Source: a virus (Duplodnaviria > Caudoviricetes). Taken from it: a DNA stretch of 64,000 nucleotides. How positions within the stretch are numbered: position 1 is the stretch's first letter; each line of letters begins with the position of its first letter. The DNA lies in IMG/VR virus record IMGVR_UViG_3300037808_002146, one strand, 5' to 3'. A program made the position numbers and the translations under genes. This document shows, piece after piece, positions 21,235 to 59,587 of the stretch. Under the pieces are notes generated by a model. That model made no database searches and was not told the DNA's origin. It worked only from the letters and a program-made list of their open reading frames with translations.

Positions 21235-21238
21235 TTAG

Positions 21239-28000: not shown

Positions 28001-31000
28001 AGAGGGAATAAATTTTGGTATAGAAAACTTAAGACCTCTAACTTCGTTTCCAGATACAGTTGTTGTATGAGATAAGTCTAAATGAGGATTCAAATGCGCT
28101 TGAGTGCCTATTTTAATATTAAGTTCTCTGCCTAGACCATTTTCCAAAAGGTTAAACCCATTAGAACCGGTTGATTCAAAACTCCCAAATCGAGTTTGAT
28201 GAGGGTGCTCCATAGTTTGTTTATTAGAACCTGATACTGCGCTTGTGTGATCAGTTCCACGATAAAACATATAAGCTGGATCATTCACGAAGTAATAATG
28301 TGCCATACTGCCGTCGTTGAAGCCGGTGCCTGAAACTGAGTCCGAGTTTTGGTTAGCATACCCGTGATAAGCAACTTGCGCATAACTAATTAACTCCCTA
28401 GTAGTAGAAGTAATTTGGCAACTTTGAGTCGTCATATTGAAACCAGATGTCACACCATTTATAGTGACAGGCCGTTCAATGCTAGCGCCTTCATAAACTA
28501 AGCTTTCTGGCGTTGCTCCGGACGGGGTATTACTAAACTCTACCGGGACGGTTCCTAAATCATCAGTGAAATATTTTATCTTACCCGAAAGTTTCCAAGA
28601 TCCTCCGGCACCAGCAGGCCTGTAGTGCGAAGAGTATCTGCTCCCGGAGTTAAAAGCTATTGATGCTGATGTGTTTAAAACTCCTCCATCGAAATCATCT
28701 GAAACTGCATTATTGATAGATAACTCCATAGTAGCATCGGTACCAGCTGGAGGCTTCATGGTAATCCCGGATAAATATCCAGCTGCGGATGCGGCACCAA
28801 TAATTTCGTAAATAAAAGCTGCGATTAAATATGTGACTGGATAAGTTGTCCAGTTGGTCCAGGCTAGATCGATAGCGTATCTAATACTTCCGTCTCTTTT
28901 TTGAGCCTCTGTAAAGCTTCCAAGATTTTGAAGAATTGGTGAAGATGTTCCAGTTACAGAAGATGCAATATAGATTCTAATTCTTTTTGGGTTAACTTCT
29001 CTCAGCTTTGTGTTAGTAGTACCGGAGACAGTCCCTGTCGAAGTGCATGTTATTATGTCTCCTACATCATAACTAGTGCTCACAGCATTAAATCCAGCAT
29101 TTAAATTCTCGCCGGCGTCATTAATAACTTCGTACTTAACCCCATCGATTACAGAGGTTACTGCTGGATTTATAACAGGAGCGTGCGAAACTATCTCTAC
29201 CCATTTAGGAGTAGTAGTGATGACCAATGTTGAGGCTATAGTTCCCAGGGGCGATTGGTCCCGGGCTTCTCCCGTGATATACTCATGCCAAGAAATGTTT
29301 CCGGTAGCTGCGTCTTTTATTTCGGGCCAGTTTGCTGGATCAGTCTGATAATCAGTACCAAAAATATTTATAATCAGTTTTGAATCTTCATGAAACCCAA
29401 AATACATTTTACCACCGACAACAGTTGATGTTGTTTCTAAACCAGAAGATTTTATTGCTTTTGGAATCGCTGCTTCGAAAGTTGTATCGACGCATTGCTT
29501 TTCACGTAACAAAAAGAAAGTATCACACCTCCACCACGCCGAGCCCTCTACAGTATTCGTTTTTCCTGTTGTTGAGTTTATATAGTCGTTAACTTGACCC
29601 TCTCTGGCATATACATTGCCACCAACGCGGTGGTAAGCTCCCTCTTTCTTTATCTTCTCTTTAGTAAAAGTAGACTTTCCACGTAGACGATGGTATGCAG
29701 ATCCTGTACCTACTAGATAATATGAATTACTCGATGAATTAGATAAGGCTGACCATATTACGCCGGTGGATGTCCACGGGTAGTACCGGTCATATATCCT
29801 CTGCGCTTCAAGATTTCTAAACCTGTCATCGTATAGTCCAAAATACCCACCGAAAGCACTTTTATCATCGTAAACTTCTTTCTGCTTTGAAAAAGAAGTG
29901 GAGTTGGAGTTGGATTGGCCGTAATTAGAGTCTGGCAAATCAATCGCGGATTCTGGGAGTAATCTTCCCATTCCCTCTTGCACTTCATCTCTAATTGATG
30001 AGCTGCAAATTATTTCAAATTTCTCAAGTAAGAATGGACCGTCTAAATAACTAGAAAGGTCTAGTTTTTGACCGTCAGTAGGTTTAAAGGTATCGGAGAA
30101 TGGAAAACCAAAGTTAGATACCGGCCGACCTCTCAGGGGCAATTCTGCATAGTGCAGCTTGCTATATTCCGAGCCTTTGTTTGGATCATTTTCCTCTGTT
30201 AAGATGCCACCGACGAAAGAAGTGTATTTGCCATTCCATGAATCATTAGCCGAATTAGAGAAGCCTTTACTTTCAGTGATTTCAACGTTAGATGTCGTTG
30301 TATATACACCATGGTCGTATATAGCTACCCTGTCTCCATAGGGCCGAAATTCTAAAACATCGCTCCCAACTGGACTGCTGTGCTGAATATTGGGGTTTTT
30401 TCCTAATTCGGTGTTAAGAGCTATTATTGTATCTGATAGCGATGACCTTATCGGTACCGGACTACCAAAAGACCCTTCGGTTAAGGTGTATTTGAAATTG
30501 TAGATTATTATACTATCGCCGGCGATTGCTGATACTAATTTTCTGACACGCAAATAAGAACCGCCTACAGGCATATCAGTAACGTTAATACGAAATTTTG
30601 TTAATGTTGCTGTATTGCTAGTATTATCATCATCGGCTGGTAAATCGCCGCCGTTTATTCGGCCGGCACCAGAATCGGTGGTTGAAACGTAAGCGCCTCC
30701 GTTATTAATAGATTTTTCAAATCTTTTATTTACGGTGTAAACAGTAGTACTGAAATTGCTAGTAGAACAATACTCAAGAACTAAGTCATCGGTGGTATCT
30801 GATGTTGATGCATCGAAAGTTCCTCCGATGATATCTTCTCGAGTTGCCCAAAACTCGATTGTTATAGTACAACCATATGGGATTTTATCGCTAATTCGAA
30901 TTTCACCCCTGTTACCAGAACCATCAAATCCGCCTAAGCTTATTACATGCTTCGTGCCTGAACCGAGATCATTTCCGGAACCTAGGTTTACAGCGCATGC

Positions 31001-34000
31001 CGTAGCTTGTTTTAAAGTCATTGCTGCGTTGCCACCTACAATTTGAAAACCCGCAGATAAGGTTGCGCTAGATGGATCGTCTTCGAACGATATAGGATCG
31101 GAACCATAACTAAAACCAACCGGTGTATTGACAAAGCCGTAAGTTTTGTTTATTTCGTTGTTACCAAAAACAGTTAGCTCATCACCGGGGGAAGGGTTTT
31201 GAGAAAACTTTAAACTAAAAGTAGATCTAACATGACCAGGAATTCTAAATCCATTGATGCCATTATGGATTCGAGTATTACCCGCAGCACCTAGCACTGC
31301 TTGCGTTAACTTCAAACTTACATGCGAATCGTCCAAGATATCGACATGGCCACAATAGAGAAGCATAGCAGAGCTCACTGTAACAGTATCTAGTAAAGTT
31401 GTGTACCTTTTGGCATTTGAGTTATTGCGAGTGACAGTTACAACGTCGCCATGACCGGAGGGACCGGTTCCGGATATGGAGCTTACATTAACCGAAATAT
31501 AGTGGCTTTTGTTGGGTGATCCATTGATTTCAAAATAAAAATAAAGTATATCAGATGAAGCGTAGGCTTTATCAAACCCTTTAGAAACCTTTATTTTAAA
31601 ATTACCGGTTATTGGAATTGTAACTAATGGTGAGTCGTTCGTTTGGAGGAAAGTGACTGTTCCCCAAGATTCGAGTAAATCAGGCAAAACGTTTGAGCAT
31701 ATTATCTTTCCGGCGTGGGCTGTTGCTATTGCGGCTTTTAGTTTCATCAATAAGCTTTTAAAGTTATCAGCTAATTCGAGAGGGCCAATTGCATATGCAC
31801 CGTCTTTTGCAACTTGTTCTGATCTCCTATAAAGTGGAGCGTTTGGGCCAATCCACTGATTGTTCATTGAAGTAGTTAAAGCTACTCCAGCGCTTTTTGA
31901 GTCGGCGCCGGTAAGAGTGTGCATCACATAATCAATCTCAGTGCCATCAGTTGATGTAATTCTAATGCTTTGGTTTGCTCGAAGACTAGGGGTAGTAAAG
32001 TGACTATCATTATAATTGCTACCGCTTACATGGGTTATCTCAGTAAATGCTGCTGAGGTAGTATTTTTCCTGTGCAAAGAAAACCCATATGTACCGCCAA
32101 AGGCAATAGGAGCAGATTTTTGAAAAATAGATACCGCGTCTTTTATAGCATCATCTCGAGACTGACCGGCTCCCGCTGCATCTCTTTTAGTCTCTATCTT
32201 TCCGGAAAACGTCGGTGATATAGATTCCCACTTTTTACTAGCGAAGTCAAAGTAGCCTATTGGATTATAGTTACCAGCAGCAAAACCTGATGTTAGAGTA
32301 TTGCCGGAGCCTGTTGTGAATCCCAACGTGGTCTTGGAGACTGGATTAATATCTATTTCTATCCTAACCCTGTCCCTAGTGGCTGATGCGAAAGAGCCGG
32401 CGGATCCAGAAAGATAAGATCCCATAGAGAAGAAATTGTCTTCGATATCATTTTTTCCATCGTCTAAAAATGGAGAAGAAACCAAAGAGCTCTTTTTAAC
32501 TACTAAGGACTCTCGAGAACGTTCGGAAATCTCTGGATTTCTAGTCGTGTTGTATCCTACGGTTTCAAAAACAGACTCGGAAGAAACACCTTGACCAGAG
32601 ATAATTGTTCTAGAAGGGATTATGTTTTTATCATCAACTGTTAACGTAACGACGTCATTTGAAAAACTAACCGTTATTGGCAAGTTATCGAAAACTACTG
32701 CATCGTTGATAGAATTAGCTAAAGACATAGCTAATTGGTTACTAGACGTAACTTCCTTAACTCCAATATTGTATTTGTTGGAATTAGAAGGATTTAAAAG
32801 AGAATCTACTCTAGCACAATATTTTTTGCCGCCAATGCTAAATTCAATCGCAGGTCTAAGAGGGATTTCGGTATCCTTTCGACCTCTTGACAAAAATTGC
32901 ACATTAACTAGTCTACGGATTAACCCACCGCGGGGAGGAAAGAAGCGATTAGACAAATTGTCTTCTACATAATCTCTAGTTACGGAAGAAGCTTCGACTA
33001 ATTCATTAAGTTTACTAACGTCGCACTTAATCGTCGCTTTTATTGTATCTTGCGTAAAACCAGCGATTATAGAATCTTTTCTTGGAGTTAAAGAAAAATC
33101 ATCGAAGCTTGAATCACCAAATGCTTGACTAGATAAAGTGTTATCCAAAATTGTAATATTAGAAGCTGGAGAACTAGATACTAAGGCTAGTGAAGTAGAA
33201 GCTGGGATAATTTGACAAAATGTAGAACTAGTTCCAAACTCTTTATTTCCTGCAGGATTTTCTAAAATTATCAAATCTTTTCCAGAATCTGGAACAAGCA
33301 GCATGCTAGCTCGAGTTAAGTCACCATTATAGTTTCCTTGGTCTATTGCTGTTATTCCAAATCCAGATACTGCGTTAATCTTTGCAACAAATTCGTCAAC
33401 TGCGTCTGTCACGGAGCGATTTGTAGTAATACCGATTTTGTCAGCATCAGCGTGATCGTCAGCAGCTGCTGTAGCTGTGTAGTTTACCGTAGTTGTCCCA
33501 TTAGCTATTTGCAGAACGCTTGAAGCGGCTACATTACTTGGATCAAATGTGTTATTGAAAATAACAATCTTTGCGCTAGAATTATATTCTGGTGTACTTG
33601 AACCTGCATCTAACATTTCTATTCTAATAGTATCGAAAGCAACCCTAGAAGCTTTTACTGGTATTCCGGAATAGCGGTTAGTCGCATTGATGAAAGTTTT
33701 AATCCTATCTACCTTAGAGGTTATGGTAGAAGCTCCAGAAAGACCGCATTTAAATCTAGTTAACGAAGCTAGCGGGGCAGAGATATGATTAGCATCTTTA
33801 ATAGGACTGGTGAGGCTATCTAACGAAAAGCCATCAGCAACTGTAGAACTGGTATCAAATATTACCTGAAAATCTTTGCCATTCGGGAGTCTTAAACTAA
33901 ATCCCGAATTATCTGCTGGACTATTTGTAAATTTGAAAGATATAGATCCTGTGGTACCCGCATCTAGATTTGATGGGAAAACAACATCTTTAGAACTATA

Positions 34001-37000
34001 AGCCTGAGTAGTACTCGAATCTTCCTTAAAAGGCTTGAAGTTAGCTTCTAGGTTTTTAGATTCTTGATATTTTTCTTGTAGCAATTTTTTCGGTAATTGA
34101 TTTCTAAATCCCGACTTGCTTCTAAGCGTCAAGTGAGATTCGGCAATTTTAGCCATTTCAGTTATTACTAACTGGCTACTAAGAATACTCAGCTCAGCAA
34201 TATTAAAATTGTTATAAAAACTCGCAGAATCAGCTGGGTTAGTTCCAGGATCACTATTCCCGTAGTTTGTTGCTAGGCCTGTAGATGTATTTCCATAACC
34301 GATGAACAATCTAGGTGAACCACCTAATGTCAATTTCGCAGATTGATCACCAGAAGGAGCCGAATTGTTTATCGAGAATGATGTTGAACTTAATAAACCA
34401 CCATGATTTTCGGAATCGTAAAGGGCAAACATATTTTTAGAGTTTGCGACATTAAAAGTTGACTCATCAAATGTAATAAATAGGGTATACCATTTGTCTT
34501 TTGCTAATGCACTTCGATCAATAGTTGCTTTCCAGTAGTCACCAGCTGCACTAGAACCGTTAGGGCGAATCCTGAATTCCAAATTTCCATCAATAGAGAG
34601 TAATTGCCATCTGCTTGACGTGGTTCCAGAAACTGTGAATATGGTACCCGTACCTGAACTTGAGTTATTATAAACCCTAGTTATAATAGTTTTCTTCCCA
34701 AGTGACACTAAACCTTTAGAGTTTCTTGTCATAGCACCAGCGTTTACATGTCCACGTGAGAATGGCATAATAGTTAAAGTTGGTACTTTGGTAGTAAGAT
34801 CGATTGACCCTGATTTAAAAGTAATTATTCCTTTGCCCGTATTTGTATTGGGATAAACTGAGTCTGAGTTTCTCAACCTAAGAATAGTTTTGCTTTCTTT
34901 TAAGGTTGAATTTCTAAATTTTTTCTCTAAAGTTGGACCAACGATAGAAGAACCTATTACTTGCTTTCCAGAAACAATATGACCTGCTGCTTGCGGGTGG
35001 GATATCGCGGTTTTAAAGTTATCAAAAAAGTCAACGAAGTTTGAATTATTAGTATACCTTACGACTACATTGTTTATCCGAGGATCTCCAGGGCCAACTA
35101 TACCGACACCATCAAAAGAATTTTCTAATATTTTTTGTCCTGTAGCTGGTACATTATATTGCGGAGTTGGAAAAGAATAAGAGTTAGAATTAAAACTAAT
35201 GAAAGAATCAGATATTGCAGTGCCGGTAGCAGTTATTGCGCCTGCTTTCTCAGAACCATCATGAATAGAAACGATAATAAACTTAGTCTTAAGATCATAT
35301 GCAGTCGGTATTTCGCAAAGCCCAAAAGCATTACTTAAAACAGTTACTTGCTCCGAAGTTACCGATGCTGAGAATGCAGCACCGGATGACATTGCATTTG
35401 CACCCGTTCGATTAGATGCAGGTAAATTTTCGATAACTGACTCAAGAGCGGTTGCAACAGCGCTTGAGTCAGCCGAATTTGCATAAGTTACAGCTATAGA
35501 ACCAGCTGGAGCTGCAGCTGAAGCTGTTTTTCTAAAAAATAGTCTATATGAAAACCCGGTGGTATCCGTAATTACAATCGATTTTTGATCTGACTCGGTA
35601 GCATCCGGACACTTTATAGTAAATTTTTGTTTTGGGCGGGCATCCATTCGAATATCTTCGTTTTCAACCGAATTTAAAGATATACCGGTTAGCGTTCCGG
35701 AGTTGCCAGAACTAACATTTGCGTTAATAGCAGCTTTAACTTTGTCCCTTATAGCCAATTTAGTAGATAAATTTTGAATGTTTATTATCGAATTAGTCGC
35801 AACATGGTTATCGGCTGTGCCGTCTGTTTTGAAAGTAAAATTAACAGAAATGTCGTTAAAATCTTTTACTGTCAATATTTTTCCATCAGATATTATTTTT
35901 TCTAAAAATAATGTAGTAGCTGTTTCGGAATTAGAAAACAAAGCACATTTTTTATCTCTTCTATCTTTCGAAGAATAGAGTATCAATGCAGAACTTTGAG
36001 AGTTTGATGGTTTTTCTGGATAGCTTGATGTTAGAGTGCTTACCGACTGTATTAAACTTTCGTTTTGTTCTATTTTCACCGTGGGATTTCGAAGTGATAA
36101 ATTTGGATTAGTAGCTGAAATATTAATAGTTGAGTCGTTATTAATTGCTTTAGATAAATTTATAGCGACTTCTTTGAGGCTGCTAGCACTATGGTTTCGA
36201 GTTGCAAAATATATTGCAAACACTTCAGAATCAGAGAGCAAAGAATTCCAGATTGCAACTTCGGTTATCTCTCCATTAAAAGCTCGGTCATGAGTATGCC
36301 TATTCCCTATGTAACCGGCTTCTGTAGCTATTCCGGAATAAGTTGCATGTTTAGCTTGTGATGAACCTAAATGACTTGAAGCTACGCGCTGTCCATTTAC
36401 ATATATAACCGGATCGTTATTCAAGGTATCAGACGCATCGTAAGTAACTGCTACATGAACCCACTGATTTAAACCAAATGATGATGGGCCTGTTCTCCAC
36501 TCAGCGTGAGCATTATTTAGTCTTGAGCTAAACGCTAGCTCTTCTGTACCGGTGCTGTAGAGAAAAATATCGCTTTGACCAAAATCGAATATTCTGCCTA
36601 AATTTCCGCCCCCATCTGCGGTTTTATTAATCCACGCAGAGAAAGACATTTTTTCTGTTGAACTAGCACCGGTGTTATCACCAATAGTAGCATCCCATTG
36701 CGCCGCTGTGCCGATATTTACTGAGTCTGTATCTCCTGCAAATTTGTAAGCAGTGTATTGATGATTTCCAATAGCATTCTTACTGGTAACATTTTCAAAG
36801 GCTGAAACATTTGTATATGATGGAGTTATTGCTAGCGCGCCGGTTTTCTTTATATTTTTCCCTAAATTGATGTGTAGCTGTAAATTGCTGTTAGCACGAT
36901 AAGATGCGAGAGGTCTAGAATAAAGATCATAAATTTCGCCAGCTGTTAAAATCTTATTCCAAAAGCCTAAATCAGCAAACTGACTGTATAGTCTACGTGA

Positions 37001-39028: not shown

Positions 39029-42000
39029 ATCTTAAACCGCTAAAAACTATTGAATCTGTCCCCGGGTGGGGGGAAGAATAATCATATCCAGCTTTTCTTC
39101 TAAAGTTTTCGCCACCCAAACTCTCGTTGCCGGCAACTCTCGTAGCTACAATATTGCTATTCATCTCTTGTAAAGTCAACACTAGAATATCCATCTCATT
39201 CGTTTCCGGATTGTTACCATTTAAGGGATTAGTTCTAAAAATCACTTCTTCTGTATCAATGTAAGGCTGAATCCTAGAATCATTTTTAAAAATAACACCG
39301 GGAACCCTAGAGTAAAAAACGTTATCTCGCTCTGCTGTTTCGGCTGGGTCAGCAAAGTTTACGCCTAACTCTTGGTATCCTTTCATATAGTCGGAAATGC
39401 CCGGGCAGTTATCGAAAAAAGCAACGTTTTTAGATTTTTCAAATGTTATTTTGTTGCTTATTTCGTAAGATTCTTTTCTAATCGATGAATATGCGTATTC
39501 GCCGCCTAACTCACCGGATAAACCCTTTATAGATTTCTCGGTAATAACACGCCCGAGCATTAAGTCTCTTATCCCTAGCGGCTCTATAACACCATCATGC
39601 TCAAACCCTAAAGAGCTTCCCAGGTTATTTACTTGAATTGGAAATCTTACGCTAGAATCAGACTTTACAAAAAAAACAGGATCCATGTTTAAAGTTCTAT
39701 TGTATCCATCTAAGTGCAGCTTAGGACCATTAAGAGAAAGATCTTCATAGAATCTTAAATCGCTAGTCCTTTGACCAAAACCAAAACTTCTCACTTCTAC
39801 ATCATGGTTAGGTTTGAGATAATATGAATTTTGATCAGCCCCGTCTCTCATTTCTACAGTTATAACTGGGTTGGAAAAATCTTCTAAAGTGTATGCATTT
39901 TGAGCGTTGATATTTGGACCAATTTGATAAAAGTTTCTCTGGTTGTCCAAAGCATTCGTCGGTATATAGGGAGTCCCATTATTAACGGTATTTTGAAGCT
40001 TTACGCAATTTTTTGATATGTAATTGTTAGCATTAATAAAACCTATGATGGTAAAAATAGAAAAACCATTCTTAGTAATTGCGTTATTGCCTATAGTTCC
40101 AGGAACTCTTTGTTTAAGGTGCAAGTATTGTGTTGATGGAGAATTAGGATCCATTGGAAACGCGCTGATTACATGATTATCAAGACCTGAATTGTGTCCA
40201 TTCACGGTGTTCATAGCATTGGCTAGCTCGTTTAAAACGTCTCTTTTCGAAAAGTTAGATCTTATATTGACGGCAATTGTTCCTATTGCAGCGTTTGATG
40301 AAGGGACAACTAGACCGGGAGCATACTTCGAACCTTCTATTAGTTTTTCTCCCGTAGGTACTGCTTTACTGCCACCGCGGCCTCCATGAACAATAGTATA
40401 GGTTTTTTGATTACCAGAAGATGACTTTATTGTAATCCTATCCGTTAGCGGGGTGGTGCCATGAGGATCACTCCCACTGGTTACTGCAATGCGCGCATAT
40501 GCATTTTTTGTCGAAGGTGTTAAATCAATATCGTCATTATCCTTGGCCAATAATATAGCATCGAAAAATCGATCTTTAAAATCTTGTAAAGAGGTAACTC
40601 CCCTGATGCCTATTTGATATTGTACGGAATTAGCACCATCTTGCGTAATTCTATAACTTCCATATTCTGCCCTGTTTGGGATTAATTGTATTAGTTTTTT
40701 GCTATTTGTCTCTCTATCATATATTCTAAATACCCTATTTTCTTGCATAAATGAGCGATAATCATTAGAGAAAGTTATATACAATTGGCTTTTATCGGTT
40801 GCGACCTTGGTTTCTGAAAATGCTTTAAAATAAGTGAGCCGAGTTTTATTTTCAGTTACTTTTATGGAATACTCTTCGTTATCAGCCGAAATTGTCTCAA
40901 GCTCAAGTTTGAGGTGGAAATTTTTATTTAGCCGCTCAAGGCTTGTTCGTAATCTTTCGATAAAAAGCTTTTTTCTAAAGGAGACTATTTTTGATGAATC
41001 GTTCCCGTACTCTCCAGAGAATGACTTTATAAGAACTTCTATTTCACTATTATTTTTTCGAATTATTCTAACGGGGTCTGTATTATCGTCTCCATTAATT
41101 ATATAAAAGTCAATCTCAGCATTAGATTTAGAATCCAAGAGGGGATTTTTTGAGATACGCGTGTTTAAAATGTCGTACCTAATATGAAAAAACCTGATTT
41201 TGAGATTGGAACTGGGTCGATAGAACGATAAATCTGGAAAAGCTAATAATAAAGTAGCGCTCCTAGAGCTAGCGTCTGCTTTTTTCCCTTCGGTCAAAAG
41301 ATCATGGAACATAAAGTCATTTACAGCTTTAGTAGTTAATTTCCAATTTTCTAGTCCAAAGATCGTAGTTTCAGGAGACGAATTATTTAATCCTTCTTGC
41401 TTTATTTTTTTGCCAATACCGGATTCAACTGATAAACTTCCAACTTCTTGAGTTAGCAAAAGAGTATCATCTTGAATAATTCTAGAAGTAACGCCAGATG
41501 TTGAGGCATTATAATTTATGATATTATTTAAATCAAAAGTTATTTTTTTGATTTTTTGAATACTGGAATTTATAACATCGTCATATGGAACTGCGTTTGG
41601 TTCACCAACATAGTATCCCGGAGCGTCCATCAACCCAAGAGCGAAGGCATTATTATCTCGAGGGTGACGTAAATCCCCGGTGTTTAAAGTCCTCAATAGA
41701 CCATTTTTCCCAGTTGAAAAACTTGGTAAAGTTATAAAACTGCTAGATATCAAAGTACCCGAGTTTGCTAAGTTTCCAATTTCGCCTGATTTATTTTGAG
41801 TAATAGCAATTACATTAGTATTAAGAGAAGCCGATATATCTAAATCCTTGTCTGAAGATACTTGGCTTAAAGCTAAGTGAATCTTAGACGCAACTCCATT
41901 TCTCACCGTTGTATCGCTAGTATTATCGATCCCAGCTAAGCTTACATCCCAGCTAGTACTTGAATTTCTAGTGGTTCTAGAAATGTCAAACTTAAGAGTA

Positions 42001-44681
42001 ACAGTTAAGAAATTTCCTTTTGAATCAGCTAAGACGAAATTTTTATTATGTAACGCTCCACTCGCTCCGGCATCATATATAGTTTTAGAAACATTATTAG
42101 TAATGGTAAGATTTGTTTTCGCTTTATAGCTACTAACAACCCTTATTTTTAAATCGCTTCCAGAACCTTTAAAAGACTCTATGTGCAAGTTATATAAACC
42201 ATCACCAGGATCTTTTGGTATATCTTTAATTCTCAAAACCAAAGAGGGTTTCTTGTCAGATTTATCGTTGAGAACAACTTTCGGATTAGCTAATGGTTGA
42301 AATCTTGCTCGAGTTTGATTTCTTAGTTGCTCGATAGTTCTTAAGTTGATGCCTTGTTCAAAACCTATAAGCTTAACTTCTGATGAATCTCTTATTGAAG
42401 CCATTTAAAATCTCCTTATTACGCCTGATCTTTGAGATACCAGTATTTTAGAGCGTAATTTCGAACGCTCATCTTCTCCCTTATATATCTCTTGATGTCC
42501 ATATGCTACCTTATATCTCTCTAACGCGTGCGATTCTATTATTAAATTGATACCTAAGAAATTGTTATTCCTAGGGACTAGTCGTTCTATCATATCAGAA
42601 AAAGCGTCATCTAACCATCTAAATAAATCGAAAAAATTTCTATAATTGACTTTCTCAGTTAGCCTATTAAAATATAAATTCCTCATATTTCTTAAATCCG
42701 GATATTCCTGCGCGAACACTAACTCTGGTTTTCCTAGTGCATCGTCCAAAGCATCGATAGCCGAGAATATATTCATTATATCTTCGTCTAGTCCTCTTTG
42801 CAAGTGTATTTGAACTTCGAACCTATTATCATTTGCTTTCTTTTCAAAAGGTAAAACTTCTGTTACGGGTGCTATTTTTGAATTGTAGAGTTTAATATTT
42901 GATCCGTCAGAAAAGCCAGCTATTTTAATTTTATCGCTGTCTAAATACTCATCAAAAAACGGTGATATTATCGTATAGTCAAAACGTTCATTGTGAACAA
43001 TTTTATTGTTCACTTCAAACCCAAACCCAAGAGCACCAGACAAACTAGTATAAGTTCCATTAGATATTTTTTCTTGATTATCCAGGGTGAAAGTTTGACT
43101 AAAATCTAAAAAGTTTAATTTCCCAAAAGGGTTTGATTTCATCTCTGGCTGATCGGTGGATATATTTAACCTTAGTTTTTGAAAAGAACCAGACATGCTA
43201 GTACTAAATGTATTGCTAACTAACGGGTTATCAACACCTACCGACTTGAAGTTACGAGCGTGTTCTATAGATTCTGTTACTGTTAAATACTTCGACCAAA
43301 ACCTAATATGACCAACTTTACCATCAAAGTATGATGTTCTTGCATGATTTATAACAGCTGAATCATTTATAAACATGCTATTTCCAGCTGGATCTACCAT
43401 TGATTGAGAGCCTATTAGAATTTGAGGTGGATTATAGTTTTCCGACTCGTGCTTCAAATTTTGAAACATATTATCGTTAGCTAACCCTTCATCAAAAAAT
43501 GATCCAGTAACAATAAATGTAGATAACTTATCAAAATCTAAAGAAGCGGCTCTGATAAAATAAGAAGAACTAACCGGTTGGTTCATATCATCATTTCTTC
43601 TTCGGCCATAAGTTATATGCCATTTTTTGCCATCCAAACAGTTTGCGCCAGTTAAAATTGTTTTTAAAACCGGAGCTGTATTGGTTTGGCTATTCCTAAC
43701 ATAAAGTGTTAACTCATTGCCAAATGGTGACAATACTAAGTTAGATAATACTGCATGTTTATCTTTAAAATTTTGGCCTGGAGTGACTCCTTGGGTTACT
43801 ATCCTGGACAAGCTTCTTCTACTCTCATTAGATAAATTACTAGGAAACTGATAAATACCTTCTACTGTCCAAGAACCTGAAGTAAATAGTCCATCGTTTG
43901 GAGAAGCGGATATACCGGCGTATGAGTATCCCGGGGTGTTTGCTCTAACCATGCCTTTACCACTCGAAAAGCCAGAAAGAGTTAAGTTAGAATCAGATGG
44001 TGCCATGGAGATTGTATGATTACCTAGGTTACGTCTGTTGAATCCTTTAGTCGTTATCTTTATTGTGTCTAAATTTGTACCAGCTGCGCTATTTTTAGTT
44101 TCTACATTAAATGAGTTTGGAAAAGCAGTAGTAATCGCAGTGCTAATATCTGTTACTAGCTGCATTGTTGTTTTGTTAGAACCACCAGCCTGCCTATTTA
44201 TTACAATAGAGCCTCCAGAGAAATTAGTCGGAGTCAAATTAGAAATATTGTTAGTGATACTCTTGTTACCAATATTGCCGGCTGTTGTTTGAGTAATCGT
44301 TATAGACTGATTTCCGTCAGCAGCAGACGGAGCAGCTGATACTGTTATTTTTCCATCGTGACCATTTGCGTGTTCAATAGCTGCCTTTAATAAACCAAGA
44401 AACTCAGCTTGATCAATTCCAGCTGCTAGAGCTGCTCCTAAATTGAAGCCAACCGCAATTGCCTTATGAGCTCCTGGAGTAAGGGTTGCTCTAATATTTC
44501 CAGTTGTTTTTAACAAAGCATTATTAGCTATAATACCTAAGTGCGCTACCCCTCCATCGTTAGTATCTGAAACGAAATAGTCGGCTATAGTTCCTGCTGC
44601 TGATTGGATTGTTATTTTCTGGCCGGCTGTCATACCATGGATCGCGTCGCCATCGGTAACAGTTAGGGTTGAAGTGGCTTT
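38279..44681 (-). repeat. Closely related copies of a ~155-aa module in two different genes (38279-38743 and 44211-44681)
   Basis: 21-aa identical core GIDQAEFLGLLKAAIEHANGH; 24 identical nt at 38450-38473 and 44391-44414. Confidence 0.95.
39021..42404 (-). CDS. 1127-aa putative baseplate-region structural protein containing plug-in modules
   Basis: SD AAGGAG; overlaps the giant ORF by 8 nt. Module-like segments at ~41715-42120, ~40515-40740 and ~40040-40500. Confidence 0.7.
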   Translation of the reverse strand: MASIRDSSEVKLIGFEQGINLRTIEQLRNQTRARFQPLANPKVVLNDKSDKKPSLVLRIKDIPKDPGDGLYNLHIESFKGSGSDLKIRVVSSYKAKTNLTITNNVSKTIYDAGASGALHNKNFVLADSKGNFLTVTLKFDISRTTRNSSTSWDVSLAGIDNTSDTTVRNGVASKIHLALSQVSSDKDLDISASLNTNVIAITQNKSGEIGNLANSGTLISSSFITLPSFSTGKNGLLRTLNTGDLRHPRDNNAFALGLMDAPGYYVGEPNAVPYDDVINSSIQKIKKITFDLNNIINYNASTSGVTSRIIQDDTLLLTQEVGSLSVESGIGKKIKQEGLNNSSPETTIFGLENWKLTTKAVNDFMFHDLLTEGKKADASSRSATLLLAFPDLSFYRPSSNLKIRFFHIRYDILNTRISKNPLLDSKSNAEIDFYIINGDDNTDPVRIIRKNNSEIEVLIKSFSGEYGNDSSKIVSFRKKLFIERLRTSLERLNKNFHLKLELETISADNEEYSIKVTENKTRLTYFKAFSETKVATDKSQLYITFSNDYRSFMQENRVFRIYDRETNSKKLIQLIPNRAEYGSYRITQDGANSVQYQIGIRGVTSLQDFKDRFFDAILLAKDNDDIDLTPSTKNAYARIAVTSGSDPHGTTPLTDRITIKSSSGNQKTYTIVHGGRGGSKAVPTGEKLIEGSKYAPGLVVPSSNAAIGTIAVNIRSNFSKRDVLNELANAMNTVNGHNSGLDNHVISAFPMDPNSPSTQYLHLKQRVPGTIGNNAITKNGFSIFTIIGFINANNYISKNCVKLQNTVNNGTPYIPTNALDNQRNFYQIGPNINAQNAYTLEDFSNPVITVEMRDGADQNSYYLKPNHDVEVRSFGFGQRTSDLRFYEDLSLNGPKLHLDGYNRTLNMDPVFFVKSDSSVRFPIQVNNLGSSLGFEHDGVIEPLGIRDLMLGRVITEKSIKGLSGELGGEYAYSSIRKESYEISNKITFEKSKNVAFFDNCPGISDYMKGYQELGVNFADPAETAERDNVFYSRVPGVIFKNDSRIQPYIDTEEVIFRTNPLNGNNPETNEMDILVLTLQEMNSNIVATRVAGNESLGGENFRRKAGYDYSSPHPGTDSIVFSGLRYV

Positions 44682-46829
44682 ATCACTGGCGCTTGAGTTA
44701 GCAAACTTAAAAATTTCTGTATTGTTGTAAGCGTCTTGAATTGTTACTTTAGTGTTTATAGATGGCAAAGCAGTTTGATTTGTAGAATGGAGCTTTATGG
44801 TTCCTGTTGCTAAAATTCCGCTGTTTACGCCACCCGAAATCTCTGGATATCCTGGCTCAATCCTGCTACCGGATAGCGGAGCAGAAAGTAATGTAGGCCT
44901 ACCGATTATAGTCCCGTCTGGTCGAGGTGTTTCCTTTATCGTACTCAAACTTCCAGAAAAATTTAAAAGAGTTGACATTTCTGTTATTTTTTGTCTAGAA
45001 GTACCTAACCTAAATTCATCCACCCCATTATATTCTACTAACCTGAATAGTCTATCTGGTTCTATGCCGGCGGATCGAAATATAGATTCAATAGCATATT
45101 TAGTTCCTTTAGATTTGAATATATGACTTATATTTTTTAATACTCTTCTCCATATTAAATTTTGTACTTCTGACAGGCTTTTTTCATATATGCTATATTC
45201 TAACCCTAGATTTTCTTTACCTAAAAATTGTTCTAACGCAACATCACCAAACACTTTTGGCAATTCAAACCCATAGTATTTCGCTAAGTCTGGTAAAAAT
45301 GCGTCAGCTACGCCTTCAACTCCTAGATAGTCGGGATTCAAAAACTGAGATACTTGATCAATGTACATTTTATACTGGTCTAACTCTTCAGCCATATAAT
45401 AAAGGAACATTGAAATCAATTGAGCATGGCCGAGTCTTCCCGATTTTGGCAAATTAGAATAAGAACTATAAGATTCTACGATATCTCCGTCTACAGTAGA
45501 GCCTTCTAAATAAGCTCCTTCTTGCAGATAATGGTTTGGTACCAGCTTGGTAATCAAATTCGGATTATTCACATCATATAAAGTTGCTTTTTGTAAAAGT
45601 TTTGAGTTGAGGCTTATTACTTCTGGGGAGCTTGGAAAAAGTACAGGGTTATAATGAGAGTCTTCCAAAAACATTGGATTATCGACTTCATGGGGCAGTC
45701 TCATCGCTTCTTTGTAGTTAGATATTTGAGTGTGCAAACTATTGCCACTGTGATCTAAAGCTAGATTGTTGTTTGTATGTGATCCTGTTGGCTCATTAAA
45801 CTTAAAGTAAAGTTTTAAGCTATCATGAGCAAATATATTTCGGCGTGAATAGTAACTAACTTCGTCAAGATCTCTAATACCATGAAATAACCTGAATTCG
45901 TCTAGAGAGCCGCTGAATGTTGATGATTTATTGAATACGAGGTTGTTATTTCCAGCATCTAAGTTTTCTCCATCACCAATTTTTAATTTTTGATTTCCTG
46001 TGTTGATAATACCATAATCGAAAAAATCGCTAGTAGATAAAACTGTTGAACCTGAGAGAATTTTTAGTGTTTGTTGTTCTGTCCTATTATCATACTGAAA
46101 AGATAAGTTATGCCACTTTCCTTTTTTTATTGTGTAACTAGCACTAGCGTAATTATAGCTGCCACTCATAAGAGCAAAATTAACTTTGCAGTTTTTTGAC
46201 GATGCTGTTTGATTAAAAAAAACAGCATACCCAGAATTTTCGCCTGCCGTTGAATTTATACTATGAAACAAAAAGCTGTTTCCGTTAGATTCTTCAGGTA
46301 ATCTTAAACAGCACTCTATAGAAAAGGAGTTATTTCGAGGGTTAATATGAGATACGCCTTGTTCACCTTTTAATAGGGTTTGGCTATAATCGCCAGACTT
46401 ATCTTTTACCTCAATGTATTGACTACTAGAAGAATCAAAGGTCAAAAAACCTCTACTCTTTGGGAATTTATTAAACACATGTTTTTCGAGAGAAGATAAA
46501 TTGTCTTCAAATGTTTCGATTTCTTCTAATGTTCCATCAAAGGGATATTCGTTAATAATTTTATTAAAAGCGACATTTATCTTTGCTTCAGCAGATCCAA
46601 AAAAAGTATTATTTTGAAAAAGAGAATTATCAACCGGGAGCTGCTGAGTTGAAATTAATCCATTGCCAGCTTCCTTTCTTTTAAAACTAGATTCGCTAGT
46701 GTTAACGCTGGTTTTTGTTAATTTTTTTTGATTTTGATCTAAGAGTATCCCTGTTGTAGTTCTATACTTTCTGAGCATCTTCCTCGTAAAATACTTTACG
46801 TTATCGAATGTTCTTGTTCTTCTAGCCAT
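42405..46829 (-). CDS. 1474-aa baseplate wedge-like protein (T4 gp7 / P2 gpI-like segment) with two LamG domains
   Basis: FLPDLAKYYGFEL...IWRRVLKNISHIFKSKGTKYAIESIFRSAGI matches the gpI/gp7-type pattern. LamG motifs FSIECCLR...WHNLSFQYD...FSGSLDEFRLF and WTVEGIYQF...WHITYGR...FDGKVGHIRFW. Confidence 0.7.
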   Translation of the reverse strand: MARRTRTFDNVKYFTRKMLRKYRTTTGILLDQNQKKLTKTSVNTSESSFKRKEAGNGLISTQQLPVDNSLFQNNTFFGSAEAKINVAFNKIINEYPFDGTLEEIETFEDNLSSLEKHVFNKFPKSRGFLTFDSSSSQYIEVKDKSGDYSQTLLKGEQGVSHINPRNNSFSIECCLRLPEESNGNSFLFHSINSTAGENSGYAVFFNQTASSKNCKVNFALMSGSYNYASASYTIKKGKWHNLSFQYDNRTEQQTLKILSGSTVLSTSDFFDYGIINTGNQKLKIGDGENLDAGNNNLVFNKSSTFSGSLDEFRLFHGIRDLDEVSYYSRRNIFAHDSLKLYFKFNEPTGSHTNNNLALDHSGNSLHTQISNYKEAMRLPHEVDNPMFLEDSHYNPVLFPSSPEVISLNSKLLQKATLYDVNNPNLITKLVPNHYLQEGAYLEGSTVDGDIVESYSSYSNLPKSGRLGHAQLISMFLYYMAEELDQYKMYIDQVSQFLNPDYLGVEGVADAFLPDLAKYYGFELPKVFGDVALEQFLGKENLGLEYSIYEKSLSEVQNLIWRRVLKNISHIFKSKGTKYAIESIFRSAGIEPDRLFRLVEYNGVDEFRLGTSRQKITEMSTLLNFSGSLSTIKETPRPDGTIIGRPTLLSAPLSGSRIEPGYPEISGGVNSGILATGTIKLHSTNQTALPSINTKVTIQDAYNNTEIFKFANSSASDKATSTLTVTDGDAIHGMTAGQKITIQSAAGTIADYFVSDTNDGGVAHLGIIANNALLKTTGNIRATLTPGAHKAIAVGFNLGAALAAGIDQAEFLGLLKAAIEHANGHDGKITVSAAPSAADGNQSITITQTTAGNIGNKSITNNISNLTPTNFSGGSIVINRQAGGSNKTTMQLVTDISTAITTAFPNSFNVETKNSAAGTNLDTIKITTKGFNRRNLGNHTISMAPSDSNLTLSGFSSGKGMVRANTPGYSYAGISASPNDGLFTSGSWTVEGIYQFPSNLSNESRRSLSRIVTQGVTPGQNFKDKHAVLSNLVLSPFGNELTLYVRNSQTNTAPVLKTILTGANCLDGKKWHITYGRRRNDDMNQPVSSSYFIRAASLDFDKLSTFIVTGSFFDEGLANDNMFQNLKHESENYNPPQILIGSQSMVDPAGNSMFINDSAVINHARTSYFDGKVGHIRFWSKYLTVTESIEHARNFKSVGVDNPLVSNTFSTSMSGSFQKLRLNISTDQPEMKSNPFGKLNFLDFSQTFTLDNQEKISNGTYTSLSGALGFGFEVNNKIVHNERFDYTIISPFFDEYLDSDKIKIAGFSDGSNIKLYNSKIAPVTEVLPFEKKANDNRFEVQIHLQRGLDEDIMNIFSAIDALDDALGKPELVFAQEYPDLRNMRNLYFNRLTEKVNYRNFFDLFRWLDDAFSDMIERLVPRNNNFLGINLIIESHALERYKVAYGHQEIYKGEDERSKLRSKILVSQRSGVIRRF

Positions 46830-48727
46830 TATACTACCTTAAAAACAAAGGATTCGTTAAAATCGGTTATTTCGTCGTTTATAATACTGAAAAATTCTAT
46901 TTTATAAGAAAACCCAGTTAATAACGTCCCAGCTTTAATAGTCGCTGAATATTCGTCATCGTAGAAACTCATTTTCGTCGAAAAAGAAAAATCCCTATCA
47001 ATCAACTCTTTATTAGAAATTAATTCAGATATTCTATAATAGAGATTCCCATAGAAATAATCGGGGTCTTTCCTTAATTTGCTAGGAAGGTATTCTTTTC
47101 CGTTTATTGTAGCAGAGCATATTAGAGTTATATCTTCTTTCTCGGTATATTCTGGTTTTCTATTTTTCATTGCTAAAGAAATAGAAGATATATCAAAGTT
47201 AGAATAAGCATCATTATAAACTCTTGATTTTTTATTTAAAAAAGTAATTTCTCCATCAGAAGTTTGCCACTTTAATTCTACATCAAATCCAGAAGAATCA
47301 GCTTTTAGAGCTTTTTTAACATATGAATTATTTCCCGGGATAGTAAAACTAGCCTGATAAACTCCTGGTAATCTATTTCCGTTAGAAGATTTATCAACTT
47401 GGCTAAAACTAACAGAACTCGTAAAAGAACCAGAAACTATTTTTAAAATGCCGCAATTGTTACCCGTTAGTTGCGCGTTAGAATTATCAAAAAGATTAGA
47501 ATTAGTAAAGCCTTTTTTAACTTTAATGCATGCAGAAGATGCTTTATTAACAAATATCCTCCCGGTATCGTCAGATATAGAATCATCAAATACTATTCTC
47601 AATCTAGGCGTTATCAGTTTATTTTTAACGTGTCTCGAAGCGAATCGCTTTACGAAACGCGATTTGCTATCTGAGCTATACGAACCACTAAAGCCAATCC
47701 TGAAACCTTCACTGGGTATTAGTCCTTTCAAGCTAGCAGATACTGCATTTGTAATATCAAATATTAAATCCTGATTAGGATCATTGAGGTATGTAGAAGA
47801 TCCTAAGTCTACTTTCGTAGTACCGAAGCTAGCGCTTGTTATGATGTCAATATGTTTTGTTGAATGGCCACCTTTAAATTTGATTGTAGTCAATCTAGTT
47901 GCTGCATTTGCTAAAGGCACTGCTGTATTACCCGTTAACCCCGAAATATCCTGTGAAAGATTAACTACAGAACTAGCATCAGGATCTATTGCTGTAATTT
48001 TTAAATCATTATTAGTTTTAGATAATGCAATTGCTTGAAATATTTTTCCAGCAATATGCGATGTCGTCGTGGTTCCGTTTATACCAAAAGTGTAGTTATT
48101 CGAATCAACCTTAGCGGGCGTAGCCGATGCTGGGTTTGCTAGAAAACTTATTGTATTAGTAGTATCGCTCAAAGAGAATCCAACTGTATTATCCCAACCT
48201 CCAACCCCAGTGATTGTGATCGATGCTTGAGCGAAAGTATTATCATTCCCGCCGGCAGCAGCTGCGCCTTCTGACTTCCATGTGATCGGGCTAGATCCTA
48301 AGTAAGATGAAGTTAAATAATTAGCCGATCCTATATCGTCGAAATTACTAACATCAATCCCAAAACCCTCTTCGAAAGTTCTAGTAAGTGGATTGCAAAT
48401 TGCGTCAAAATTAAAAGGCTTTTGTAAACCAGAACTTACATCTTGCAATTCTAAATAAGCTTTGAAGTCGGATTTATTTCGAATATCTAAGATACTAGAA
48501 GTTAAATTTCCAAGCGTCGAATAATCAAATTTAATTAGTAGCGCAGATTTTTCAGATATATTAGATGTTACGTAATTGCCAGATTCAACTACGCCAGATT
48601 CTTCAAAGAGTTTGAAAAGATCTAAAGTAGCGCTGTGGCCTGTATTAGCATTTTTCGATCTATATTTGTTATCAATTATTTTGTCTGTTATATAACAATC
48701 TTTGCTAGCTGAAATTATTAATTGCAT
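46829..48727 (-). CDS. 632-aa structural protein, DNRLRE/CBM96-like N-terminal domain with an inserted module
   Basis: SKDCYI...ALLIKFD...KAYLEL...LIFDIT.AV...GFRI...FASR...PRLRIV pattern; coupled by TAATG overlaps on both sides. Confidence 0.55.
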   Translation of the reverse strand: MQLIISASKDCYITDKIIDNKYRSKNANTGHSATLDLFKLFEESGVVESGNYVTSNISEKSALLIKFDYSTLGNLTSSILDIRNKSDFKAYLELQDVSSGLQKPFNFDAICNPLTRTFEEGFGIDVSNFDDIGSANYLTSSYLGSSPITWKSEGAAAAGGNDNTFAQASITITGVGGWDNTVGFSLSDTTNTISFLANPASATPAKVDSNNYTFGINGTTTTSHIAGKIFQAIALSKTNNDLKITAIDPDASSVVNLSQDISGLTGNTAVPLANAATRLTTIKFKGGHSTKHIDIITSASFGTTKVDLGSSTYLNDPNQDLIFDITNAVSASLKGLIPSEGFRIGFSGSYSSDSKSRFVKRFASRHVKNKLITPRLRIVFDDSISDDTGRIFVNKASSACIKVKKGFTNSNLFDNSNAQLTGNNCGILKIVSGSFTSSVSFSQVDKSSNGNRLPGVYQASFTIPGNNSYVKKALKADSSGFDVELKWQTSDGEITFLNKKSRVYNDAYSNFDISSISLAMKNRKPEYTEKEDITLICSATINGKEYLPSKLRKDPDYFYGNLYYRISELISNKELIDRDFSFSTKMSFYDDEYSATIKAGTLLTGFSYKIEFFSIINDEITDFNESFVFKVV

Positions 48728-50640: not shown

Positions 50641-51140
50641 TAACCTACCGCCCTTATTATTACTTCTATTGATTCATTGGAAACATTCAAACTAGGTATG
50701 GCATATAAGACCCTCACTCCAATATTAGCATGGTGTTCATTGTTATCACGATCTGTAAATGCTTCAAAGCTAGTCAACGAAATAAAAGGCATATAAACGC
50801 TAATAGCTTGATTAATCCTACTTATCGCTTCACTCTCTATATCATCGGATGCTAACTCAAATGCTAACTCTTCTAAATTTGCGCCGAAGTTATAGTTACC
50901 TAACCGCTCTCCCTTATTAGTCATAAGTAGATTTTTAAAGTTATCTTTAATTTGATCTTTTAAGTTTTTGTGCATCTTAAATAAACCGTCTCTATCCGAG
51001 CCAAGCTCTAATGGAGTTTTAATACCAATTAATTTTTGAAATTGGAAATCTCTCTTAGCTTTATCTACAACTGACTTTAATTGGCCGGCTGATTTGAATT
51101 TTATTTCACTTCTATTTTTTGTTCTATCTCTAGATGCCAT
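50640..51140 (-). CDS. Baseplate gp25/GPW-like protein
   Basis: DQIKDNFKNLLMTNKGERLGNYNFGANLEELAFE...INQAISVYMPFISL; adjacent to the gp6-like gene. Confidence 0.92.
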   Translation of the reverse strand: MASRDRTKNRSEIKFKSAGQLKSVVDKAKRDFQFQKLIGIKTPLELGSDRDGLFKMHKNLKDQIKDNFKNLLMTNKGERLGNYNFGANLEELAFELASDDIESEAISRINQAISVYMPFISLTSFEAFTDRDNNEHHANIGVRVLYAIPSLNVSNESIEVIIRAVG

Positions 51141-59583: not shown

Positions 59584-59587
59584 TAAT

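What the first reader, a model, noticed from the sequence alone, without database searches (positions are those of the whole stretch)
30220..48235. One ~100-155 aa 'plug-in' module recurs about a dozen times across four baseplate-block proteins
The same pattern appears repeatedly: [A.x.I.I/V]-[I.I.(D/S)..G...Y/F]-[variable loop]-[A..I..AIN helix]-[V.LTQ...G..GN..I]-[F.GG]. Approximate copies: 4671-aa protein at 38279-38743, 35640-35920, 35330-35630, 33590-33960, 33340-33520, 32635-32860, 31270-31985 and 30220-31230; 1127-aa protein at 41715-42120, 40515-40740 and 40040-40500; 1474-aa protein, two copies in 43960-44810; 632-aa protein at 47870-48235. The host proteins are otherwise unrelated. 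Inference: a spacer or adaptor domain that spreads through the virion proteome and builds out the baseplate modularly. Some copies are very divergent, and those assignments are by eye.
Basis: partly seen in the sequence, partly recalled or inferred. Interest (0 to 1): 0.82.

Follow-up and report, generated by a model that had tools for sequence, protein, structure and literature searches.

The report
Mobile insert domain decorating phage tail proteins
A small protein domain of about 110-160 residues really is repeated about a dozen times in four neighbouring baseplate proteins of an uncultured marine giant phage; related phages gain, lose and move it at exact sites, and it has the fold of the outer add-on domain of phage tail sheaths, so it is a new family of a known kind of virion decoration.

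Summary
Two profile HMMs built from the window and from IMG/VR relatives score eleven copies at 12-113 bits. The best score in a 21-fold shuffled or reversed proteome is 7.3 bits. All eleven lie in the four proteins (4671, 1127, 1474 and 632 aa) that follow the gp25-like and gp6-like wedge genes.

Two further copies, a4 and a5, have no sequence link, but their AlphaFold model finds the same structural neighbours at the same residue ranges. The outer, nested copy in the 1474-aa protein is weakly supported. The 30220-31230 copy is not supported.

Orthologues show clean presence or absence at exact junctions. They also show modules nested inside modules and copying between genes.

The fold is a small beta-barrel with one long helix. 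Its closest solved matches are the external domain of myophage tail sheaths (Z 6.3-7.3), the T7 nozzle-tip domain and flagellin/FliD variable domains. In one relative, a 1675-aa tail sheath carries four or five copies of the same sequence family.

The family has no Pfam or PHROG model, yet it matches 1168 protein clusters. All ten clusters I looked up come from metagenomes and are unnamed or called hypothetical, three of them from Tara Oceans samples.

Verdict: a promiscuous, insertion-tolerant accessory domain of the tail surface. Its function as a pedestal, adhesin or brace is inferred. The "recent transfer" is not recent. Earlier scan notes cover this genome only.

The parts
38261..38755 (-). 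Copy a1, P0001 residues 92-256, long form with the LKAAIEHANGH helix
   Evidence: HMM scores of 91-100 bits. 58% identical to c1. Cleanly absent from the G001 orthologue.
35633..35941 (-). Copy a2, P0001 residues 1030-1132, divergent
   Evidence: 12.4 bits with the broad HMM against a control maximum of 7.3. The L001 orthologue scores 22.6 bits. hhalign probability 72%.
35309..35632 (-). Copy a3, P0001 residues 1133-1240. Contiguous here, but split by one or two a5-type modules in relatives.
   Evidence: 16-27 bits. The alignment shows the insert in L001 and G001 exactly between the strand '..IAV..' and the helix.
33584..33961 (-). Copy a4, P0001 residues 1690-1815. Same fold, no significant sequence link.
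   Evidence: 7.9 bits, borderline. The AF2 model aligns to the A-1(L) sheath at 93-168 with Z 5.7 and to FliD with Z 4.8. It matches the same AFDB entries as d1.
33233..33574 (-). Copy a5, P0001 residues 1819-1932. A separate sequence family (..VDEFVSKINA..) with the same fold, and itself mobile.
   Evidence: Eleven copies in relatives at different sites. The AF2 model hits the Mu sheath at Z 6.8, Sf14 at 6.3, the nozzle at 5.9 and FliC at 5.2. Absent at this site in L001.
32579..32881 (-). Copy a6, P0001 residues about 2050-2150
   Evidence: 18-25 bits.
31583..32062 (-). Copy a7, P0001 residues 2323-2482, long form
   Evidence: E 4e-6 with the first three-sequence HMM. 12.7-32.8 bits later.
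31229..31582 (-). Copy a7b, P0001 residues 2483-2600. Only the C-terminal half (V.LTQ..G..GN) scores.
   Evidence: 12.5-16.6 bits. hhalign probability 85%.
30221..31231 (-). Not supported.
   Evidence: 0.9 bits. hhalign probability about 1%.
37514..37651 (-). Possible N-terminal half of a split module that carries two LamG domains, P0001 residues about 460-505
   Evidence: Joined in silico to residues 942-1005 it scores 14-15 bits with the a5 HMM, against a control maximum of 8.6. Weak, and many boundary choices were tried.
36014..36205 (-). Possible C-terminal half of that split module, P0001 residues 942-1005
   Evidence: The orthologous stretch in G001 (934-1002) scores 47.7 bits with the a5 HMM. 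LamG and pentaxin Pfam hits lie between the two halves.
41697..42122 (-). Copy b1, P0002 residues 95-236
   Evidence: 24-35 bits. Clusters with its positional orthologues.
40446..40742 (-). Copy b2, P0002 residues 555-653
   Evidence: 22.2 bits with the first HMM but 5.7 with the broad one. hhalign probability 96%.
40017..40445 (-). Copy b3, P0002 residues 654-796, long form, directly before the conserved C-terminal core
   Evidence: 71-73 bits. The N-terminal 785 aa of P0002 are absent from the distant 350-aa orthologue.
44202..44690 (-). Copy c1, P0003 residues 714-876, the inner copy
   Evidence: 105-113 bits. Sister to window a1 in the tree, with the L001 a1 outside that pair.
44691..44828 (-). 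Putative N-terminal half of the outer copy, P0003 residues 668-713
   Evidence: Aligns to HMM positions 1-37 at 5.0 bits. See the next part.
43950..44201 (-). Putative C-terminal half of the outer copy, P0003 residues 877-960
   Evidence: The two halves joined score 11.9 bits over HMM positions 1-119, against 10.2 for the best of 600 shuffles. The same holds for two orthologues. The whole 664-960 block is missing from the L080 orthologue.
47840..48235 (-). Copy d1, P0004 residues 165-296
   Evidence: 52-77 bits. Clean indel of about 112 aa against the L080 orthologue. AF2 model with pLDDT 73.9.
48727..51140 (-). Context: the gp6/J-like (637 aa) and gp25/W-like (166 aa) baseplate wedge genes directly upstream
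   Evidence: PHROG 219, 6, 261 and 43.

Best explanation
The module is an autonomous alpha/beta accessory domain of 110-160 residues. Its element order is an N-terminal strand, a beta-hairpin, a variable loop, one or two strands, one long helix (A..I..AIN or LKAAIEHANGH), a beta-hairpin (V.LTQ..G..GN..I) and a closing strand ending F.GG.

It belongs to the same fold class as three known domains: the external 'additional' domain of myophage tail sheath proteins, the T7 nozzle-tip domain, and the variable domains of flagellin and FliD.

Shown here:
- It is one sequence superfamily with several subtypes. There are more than 1100 protein clusters in public data, and all ten I looked up are metagenomic and unnamed or hypothetical.
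- It sits as an in-frame insert in otherwise conserved proteins.
- Related phages differ by whole modules at exact junctions.
- Modules lie inside loops of other modules.
- Modules have been copied from one tail gene into another.
- In a relative the same family fills the insertion site of a giant tail sheath.

Inferred:
- Its two ends lie close together, so it can be spliced into a surface loop without disturbing the host fold.
- It projects outward from the sheath and the baseplate rim.
- Its role is to enlarge and diversify the tail surface, as a pedestal that displays further cargo such as LamG lectin-like domains, and perhaps as a weak adhesin or an inter-subunit brace.
- Copies arise by in-frame duplication or recombination between paralogous modules.
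For: Repeat family above noise.

Presence or absence at exact sites.

Copy numbers in orthologues.

Tree: b1, b3 and d1 cluster by position, which indicates vertical descent. Window a1 and window c1 are sisters (99/87) with the L001 a1 outside them. G001 P0002-310 groups with the P0003-713 type (100/99).

Fold: the d1 model has pLDDT 73.9 and pTM 0.72. The VIA-align top rows are sheath 8kee_A 104-184 (Z 7.3, rmsd 2.2, 80 aa, 21% id), Mu 9khy_a (Z 6.8), PhiTE 9cb9_A (Z 6.3), T7 gp12 160-248 (Z 5.9), FliC (Z 5.4) and FliD (Z 5.0-5.2). The independent a4+a5 model returns the same chains and ranges and AFDB flagellins at E 5e-5. The ESM Atlas gives TM 0.58-0.64 to viral clusters that carry Phage_sheath_1 or Phage_T4_gp13.

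Sheath in the relative G001: a 1675-aa ORF matches phrog_23 'tail sheath' at E 4e-54, with its core at 1002-1672 and modules at 166-859.

Spread: 1168 clusters at E<=1e-3 and up to 19 copies per protein. All ten clusters looked up are metagenomic and unnamed or 'hypothetical protein', three of them from Tara Oceans samples. No Pfam or PHROG model covers the module.

LamG cargo between module-like halves.

Literature: sheath additional domains are external, non-essential and more numerous in large phages (PMC9230969). The T7 nozzle-tip domain is a loop insert, a beta-barrel with one helix (PMC6702177).
Against: The structural matches are moderate. Z is 5-7.3, and the tool itself notes that a best Z of 7-8 is typical of models without a true relative. 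Foldseek against the PDB found nothing at E<0.6.

The profile search against PDB sequences gave only an insignificant sheath hit at E 1.7.

Both models have middling confidence (pLDDT 74 and 68.5).

I could not superpose the models or measure the distance between the termini, because no coordinates were available.

a4, a5 and the outer P0003 copy have no significant sequence link to the main family, so common descent of all copies is not proven.

No experiment or virion structure bears on exposure or function. The phage is uncultured.
Confidence: 0.72

Rival explanations
1. The module is itself the binding unit: a weak carbohydrate or surface adhesin, like the Ig-like domains on other phages. 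Its variable loop would be the binding site, and multiplication would raise avidity for the host or for particles.
For: It has the same evolutionary behaviour as Ig-like accessory domains, being promiscuous, surface-located and non-core (literature quoted in PMC9230969). The variable loop differs strongly between subtypes. The module occurs on the sheath and the baseplate rim.
Against: No known lectin or CBM family matches. The conserved positions are in the helix and core strands, not in a pocket. Dedicated LamG domains are present as separate cargo.
Confidence: 0.3
2. The modules are structural cement. They contact neighbouring subunits and stabilise an unusually large baseplate and sheath, as proposed for the extra sheath domain of Staphylococcus phage 812.
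For: PMC9230969 quotes that proposal. Positional orthologues b1, b3 and d1 are conserved across three relatives, as expected for fixed contacts. The proteins are giant (4671 aa).
Against: Several modules are gained or lost between close relatives without loss of the open frame. The distant relative has none at all.
Confidence: 0.2
3. The similarity is only convergent. Several unrelated small alpha/beta domains share low-complexity Ser/Thr/Gly/Asn-rich composition and a common secondary-structure order, so there is no single module.
For: a4, a5, a8 and the outer P0003 copy fail profile-profile tests. Z scores are middling.
Against: Eleven copies exceed every score from composition-preserving shuffles. 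The jackhmmer run seeded from d1 reaches the long form through significant intermediates. Two independent models hit the same chains at the same residue ranges.
Confidence: 0.08

Closest known systems
External ('additional') domain of type 2 and type 3 myophage tail sheath proteins, for example cyanophage A-1(L) sheath residues about 104-184, Mu gpL and PhiTE D3 (Evseev et al. 2022, PMC9230969)
   Same: Best structural matches, Z 6.3-7.3. It is inserted after the N-terminal sheath segment, is external and is dispensable for contraction. In the relative G001 the same sequence family occupies exactly that site of a 1675-aa sheath. The number of added domains grows with genome size.
   Different: No significant sequence similarity to any solved sheath (E 1.7). 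Here the domain is found mainly outside the sheath, in four baseplate-distal proteins, in up to a dozen copies, nested and exchanged between genes.
Flagellin D2/D3 and FliD D2/D3 variable domains; Pfam Flagellin_IN motif (PF07196)
   Same: Similar fold at Z 5.0-5.4. AFDB flagellins match at E 5e-5 for the two-domain model. Both have the helix motif ending '..IN' and the Russian-doll insertion of one domain into another on the surface of a filament.
   Different: No Pfam hit even at E<=10. FlgK_D1 clusters reach only TM 0.43-0.45. The resemblance to PF07196 is from my memory of the motif and is not a test.
T7 gp12 nozzle-tip domain and T4 gp11 domain
   Same: A beta-barrel with one helix, inserted in a loop of the host domain (PMC6702177). 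Z 5.9 and 4.5. One family member carries Pfam Phage_nozzle.
   Different: The T7 domain forms the channel tip and gate. Nothing suggests such a role here.
Ig-like accessory domains of phage structural proteins (Fraser et al. 2006, as cited in PMC9230969)
   Same: Same evolutionary behaviour: promiscuous, in-frame, surface-exposed additions to virion proteins that are exchanged horizontally.
   Different: A different fold (alpha/beta with a long helix, not a beta-sandwich). Self-nesting and cargo-carrying have not been described for Ig-like domains, to my knowledge.

Membership tests
Tail sheath additional/external domain class | Fold similar to the external domain of solved sheath proteins | tested here: inconclusive
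   Z 7.3, 6.8 and 6.3 with rmsd 2.2-2.5 over 78-88 aa for d1. Z 6.8, 6.3 and 5.8 for a5 and 5.7 for a4. The set of hits is coherent, but the scores lie in the range that the tool calls common.
Tail sheath additional/external domain class | Inserted between the N-terminal segment and the C-terminal conserved core of a sheath protein | tested here: met
   G001 1675-aa ORF: phrog_23 at E 4e-54 with its core at 1002-1672. Modules at 166-322, 321-495, 535-681 and 737-859. This is in a relative, not in the window.
Tail sheath additional/external domain class | Detectable sequence homology to a characterised sheath domain | tested here: not met
   Profile against PDB sequences: sheath 8fop_T at E 1.7 only. 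No Pfam sheath model hits the modules.
Pfam Flagellin_IN (PF07196) | Match to the Pfam HMM | tested here: not met
   hmmscan of ten copies at E<=10 returned no flagellar family.
Flagellin/FliD variable-domain fold | Structural similarity to D2/D3 domains | tested here: inconclusive
   4nx9_A at Z 5.4; FliD 6iwy, 5h5w and 6kty at Z 5.0-5.2. AFDB flagellins at E 5e-5 but TM 0.26 over two domains.
Ig-like phage accessory domains | Beta-sandwich fold (I-set, FN3 or Big_2) | tested here: not met
   The models contain a helix of 14-19 residues packed on the strands. No Ig-type Pfam hit.
   d1, a1 and a5, a5 inside a3, the P0003 hotspot and an extra copy in G001 P0002.
   Model coordinates are not exposed. 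Adjacency is inferred only from tolerated loop insertions and nesting.

The most novel reading that the evidence does not exclude
The module would be a self-nesting protein 'building block' that this lineage of marine giant myophages uses as a combinatorial scaffold. Any copy can accept another copy or a lectin-type domain in two defined loops. The tail surface would then grow as a branching tree of domains whose leaves are swapped between genes as cassettes. That would amount to a protein-level system for rapid diversification of host or particle binding, distinct from tail-fibre tip exchange and from DGRs.
Probability: 0.2. Interest if true: 0.8.

Novelty: new variant of a known kind. Interest (0 to 1): 0.56.

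Why it matters
The work defines an unannotated domain family that is absent from Pfam and PHROGs yet common in public metagenome protein data (1168 clusters). It links that family by fold, and by its position in a sheath protein, to the enigmatic 'additional domains' of phage tail sheaths.

The locus offers natural insertion and deletion series at exact junctions, nested insertions and inter-gene copies. It is therefore a good system for two questions: how giant virion proteins grow, and which loops of a small domain tolerate cargo. The second question is useful for phage display and for engineering tail surfaces.

An HMM of the family would annotate part of many giant 'hypothetical' proteins in marine viromes.

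Tried and rejected
1. 'Recent transfer' between P0001 and P0003. The two copies are 58% identical in protein but only 58.5% in DNA, with 37 identical codons among 95 identical residues. The copy event shown by the tree is old, so this is rejected.

2. Fibre-docking role by analogy with T7 gp12. The matched gp12 residues 160-248 belong to the nozzle-tip domain, not the fiber dock. Dropped.

3. Pfam, PHROG and PDB sequence searches for the module found nothing significant.

4. tblastn of a1 against 50,697 GenBank phages found no match. P0003 and the P0002 core have almost no GenBank phage relatives.

5. Foldseek against the PDB and BFVD found no hit at E<=0.001.

6. Iterating the long-form HMM alone stalls at four copies. 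Seeding from d1 was needed.

7. hhalign between shallow sub-profiles (a4, a5, a8, outer c) gave probabilities of 8% or less.

8. No whole genome is held for the window, so the window phage's own sheath could not be checked. Only a relative's sheath was.


Full report
**Context**

All genes of the window lie on the minus strand. A gp25/W-like protein (166 aa) and a gp6/J-like wedge protein (637 aa) are recognised by PHROGs. They are followed by the four proteins of the finding:
- P0004, 632 aa
- P0003, 1474 aa
- P0002, 1127 aa
- P0001, 4671 aa

Pfam sees only LamG/pentaxin domains in P0001 and P0003, and PHROGs sees nothing. GenBank phages hold only distant relatives of the wedge protein, at 28% identity, and none of the module. 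No whole genome is held for the window.

**Is the repeat real?**

BLASTP links P0001 92-251, P0003 714-871 and P0002 629-779. An HMM of these three finds P0001 2323-2482.

IMG/VR holds 76 loci with relatives of the module. A jackhmmer run seeded from the P0004 copy, over window and locus ORFs, converges on a single family of about 158 copies that includes the long form.

Its HMM scores ten window copies at 12.7-113 bits. The best score in a 21-fold reversed or locally shuffled copy of the window proteome is 7.3 bits. A broader HMM, built from 626 copies after adding 150 database representatives, keeps nine of the ten and adds the 35640-35920 copy at 12.4 bits. Copy a4 is borderline at 7.9 bits.

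All hits lie in the four proteins. The a5 copy belongs to a separate 11-member sequence family. The 30220-31230 copy has no support.

**Orthologues**

Three relatives of graded distance were recovered:
- REL1: IMGVR_UViG_3300010883_026628 (L001, L077)
- REL2: IMGVR_UViG_3300020473_002200 (G001, 188 kb)
- A distant one (L079, L080) that has no module at all

The module d1 is a clean indel of about 112 aa in P0004. The whole 664-960 block of P0003 is missing from the distant orthologue. It is larger and differently composed in REL1 (two modules plus a LamG domain) and in REL2 (three modules). Only the last 340 aa of P0002 are conserved in the distant 350-aa orthologue, and REL2 has one extra module in P0002.

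In P0001, a1 is absent from REL2 with an exact junction. The a5 module is present after a4 in the window and in REL2 but not in REL1. REL1 and REL2 instead carry two copies and one copy of a5, respectively, inside a3. The insert lies exactly between the strand before the helix and the helix itself, whereas a3 is contiguous in the window. This is direct evidence for nesting.

The outer copy in P0003 is weaker evidence for nesting. With the inner copy excised in silico it scores 11.9 bits over the full HMM, against 10.2 for the best of 600 shuffles, and the two orthologues behave alike. The stretch around the two LamG domains of P0001 behaves like a split a5-type module.

**History**

In a maximum-likelihood tree, b1, b3 and d1 each cluster with their positional orthologues, which indicates vertical inheritance. 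Window a1 and window c1 are sisters (99/87), with REL1 a1 outside them. The inner P0003 copy of the window was therefore derived from the P0001 copy within this lineage, and it replaced the subtype that REL1 and REL2 carry at the same site. The extra REL2 P0002 copy groups with the P0003-713 subtype (100/99).

The a1/c1 event is not recent. DNA identity is 58.5%, and only 37 of 95 identical residues use the same codon.

**What it is**

The AF2 model of d1 (90-row alignment, pLDDT 73.9, pTM 0.72) has this order of elements: strand, strand, loop, two short strands, a 17-residue helix, then four strands.

Foldseek finds nothing in the PDB. The exhaustive VIA-align search gives a thematically coherent top list:
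- External domains of tail sheaths: A-1(L) Z 7.3, Mu Z 6.8, PhiTE Z 6.3, and also Sf14, E217, XM1 and Bas63
- The nozzle protein of T7-like phages at residues 160-248, Z 5.0-5.9
- Flagellin FliC, Z 5.4
- FliD D2-D3, Z 5.0-5.2
- T4 gp11, Z 4.5

The second model (a4+a5, 11-row alignment, pLDDT 68.5) returns the same chains at the same residue ranges for each of its two domains. It also returns the same AFDB entries as d1, plus flagellins at E 5e-5. The ESM Atlas gives TM 0.58-0.64 to viral clusters that carry Phage_sheath_1 or Phage_T4_gp13. These Z scores are moderate, and the tool warns that such values are common. The argument rests on the consistency of the hit lists.

The argument also rests on an independent sequence result. 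In REL2 a 1675-aa ORF with a sheath core (phrog_23 at E 4e-54, residues 1002-1672) lies next to a second sheath paralogue and the tube gene. It carries four or five copies of this same family at residues 166-859. That is the insertion site of the 'additional domains' of sheath proteins, which are described as external, non-essential and more numerous in large phages (PMC9230969). The T7 match is to the nozzle-tip domain, a beta-barrel with one helix inserted in a propeller loop (PMC6702177).

**Spread**

A profile search of 1.84 billion representative proteins finds 1168 clusters at E<=1e-3 and 574 at E<=1e-10, with up to 19 copies in one protein. The ten clusters I looked up are all metagenomic, three of them holding Tara Oceans members, and unnamed or called 'hypothetical protein'. 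Pfam recognises only a Phage_nozzle domain in one of ten carriers. Of 102 carrier ORFs in the fetched loci, 85 share nothing else with P0001-P0004.

**Mechanism and function**

Shown: the module is an independently folding unit that can be present or absent in a loop of a conserved protein, can carry further inserts at two positions, and has been copied between tail genes.

Inferred: its termini are adjacent, it is exposed on the outside of the sheath and baseplate rim, and it acts as a pedestal or decoration that enlarges and diversifies the tail surface. The LamG cargo hints at carbohydrate binding. Adhesin and cement roles are rivals that only experiments can separate.

**Novelty**

The kind is known: promiscuous accessory domains on virion proteins, and sheath additional domains. 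What is new is the sequence family, its extreme multiplication across the baseplate block, the self-nesting and the cassette replacement. Earlier notes of this scan concern only this same genome. One of them (e1-5376930, unchecked) says that the genome's own sheath holds three copies, which agrees with what I found in REL2.

Noticed in passing
L077:11896-17355 (REL1 orthologue of P0003), about residues 1100-1330; window 36206-36760: The P0003 insertion hotspot of REL1 holds a LamG domain close to the second LamG of window P0001 (204 bits outside the modules). LamG therefore also behaves as a movable cassette between these two genes.
   Followed up: partly
L091:36-7613 (G001 82035-89612): Two tandem tail sheath paralogues (842 and 1675 aa, 33% identical in the core) lie directly before a gp19-like tube gene. 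Only the larger one carries modules.
   Followed up: partly
L090:2330-5716 (G001): A 1129-aa ORF of unknown function carries one module (34.6 bits). It sits next to a RuvC-like resolvase and a primase, so it is possibly not a virion gene. A 1142-aa counterpart exists in G003.
   Followed up: no
alignment A4, columns at P0004:158-300 positions 76-82; window a1, c1, b3: The motif at the C-terminal end of the helix, ..IEHANGH.., has Gly-His nearly invariant in 90% of 90 copies but is absent from the d1 and b1 subtype. Its role is unexplained; it could be a cap, a metal site or a contact.
   Followed up: no
window 39021-42404: Only the last 340 aa or so of the 1127-aa protein are conserved in the distant 350-aa orthologue. 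The first 785 aa, which hold three modules plus unknown domains, are a lineage-specific N-terminal extension.
   Followed up: partly
window 13434-24964: The 483-, 2108- and 1241-aa proteins downstream share large blocks: 61% identity over the first 270 aa, and 40-45% over a C-terminal unit of about 600 aa that is duplicated in the 2108-aa protein. This is a shuffled set of fibre genes.
   Followed up: no
L088:2089-4227 and L089:121-5112: The a5-type module also occurs in a 713-aa and a 1664-aa protein of other viral contigs. The upstream parts of these proteins are unrelated to P0001.
   Followed up: no
(AFDB and ESM Atlas rows): The same fold appears in Myxococcota DUF4215 proteins and in Planctomycetota FGE-sulfatase-domain proteins. 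The domain class is therefore not confined to viruses.
   Followed up: no
window 56277-60570: Two glycosyltransferases, an exonuclease and a nucleotide-sugar epimerase lie just upstream of the baseplate block.
   Followed up: no
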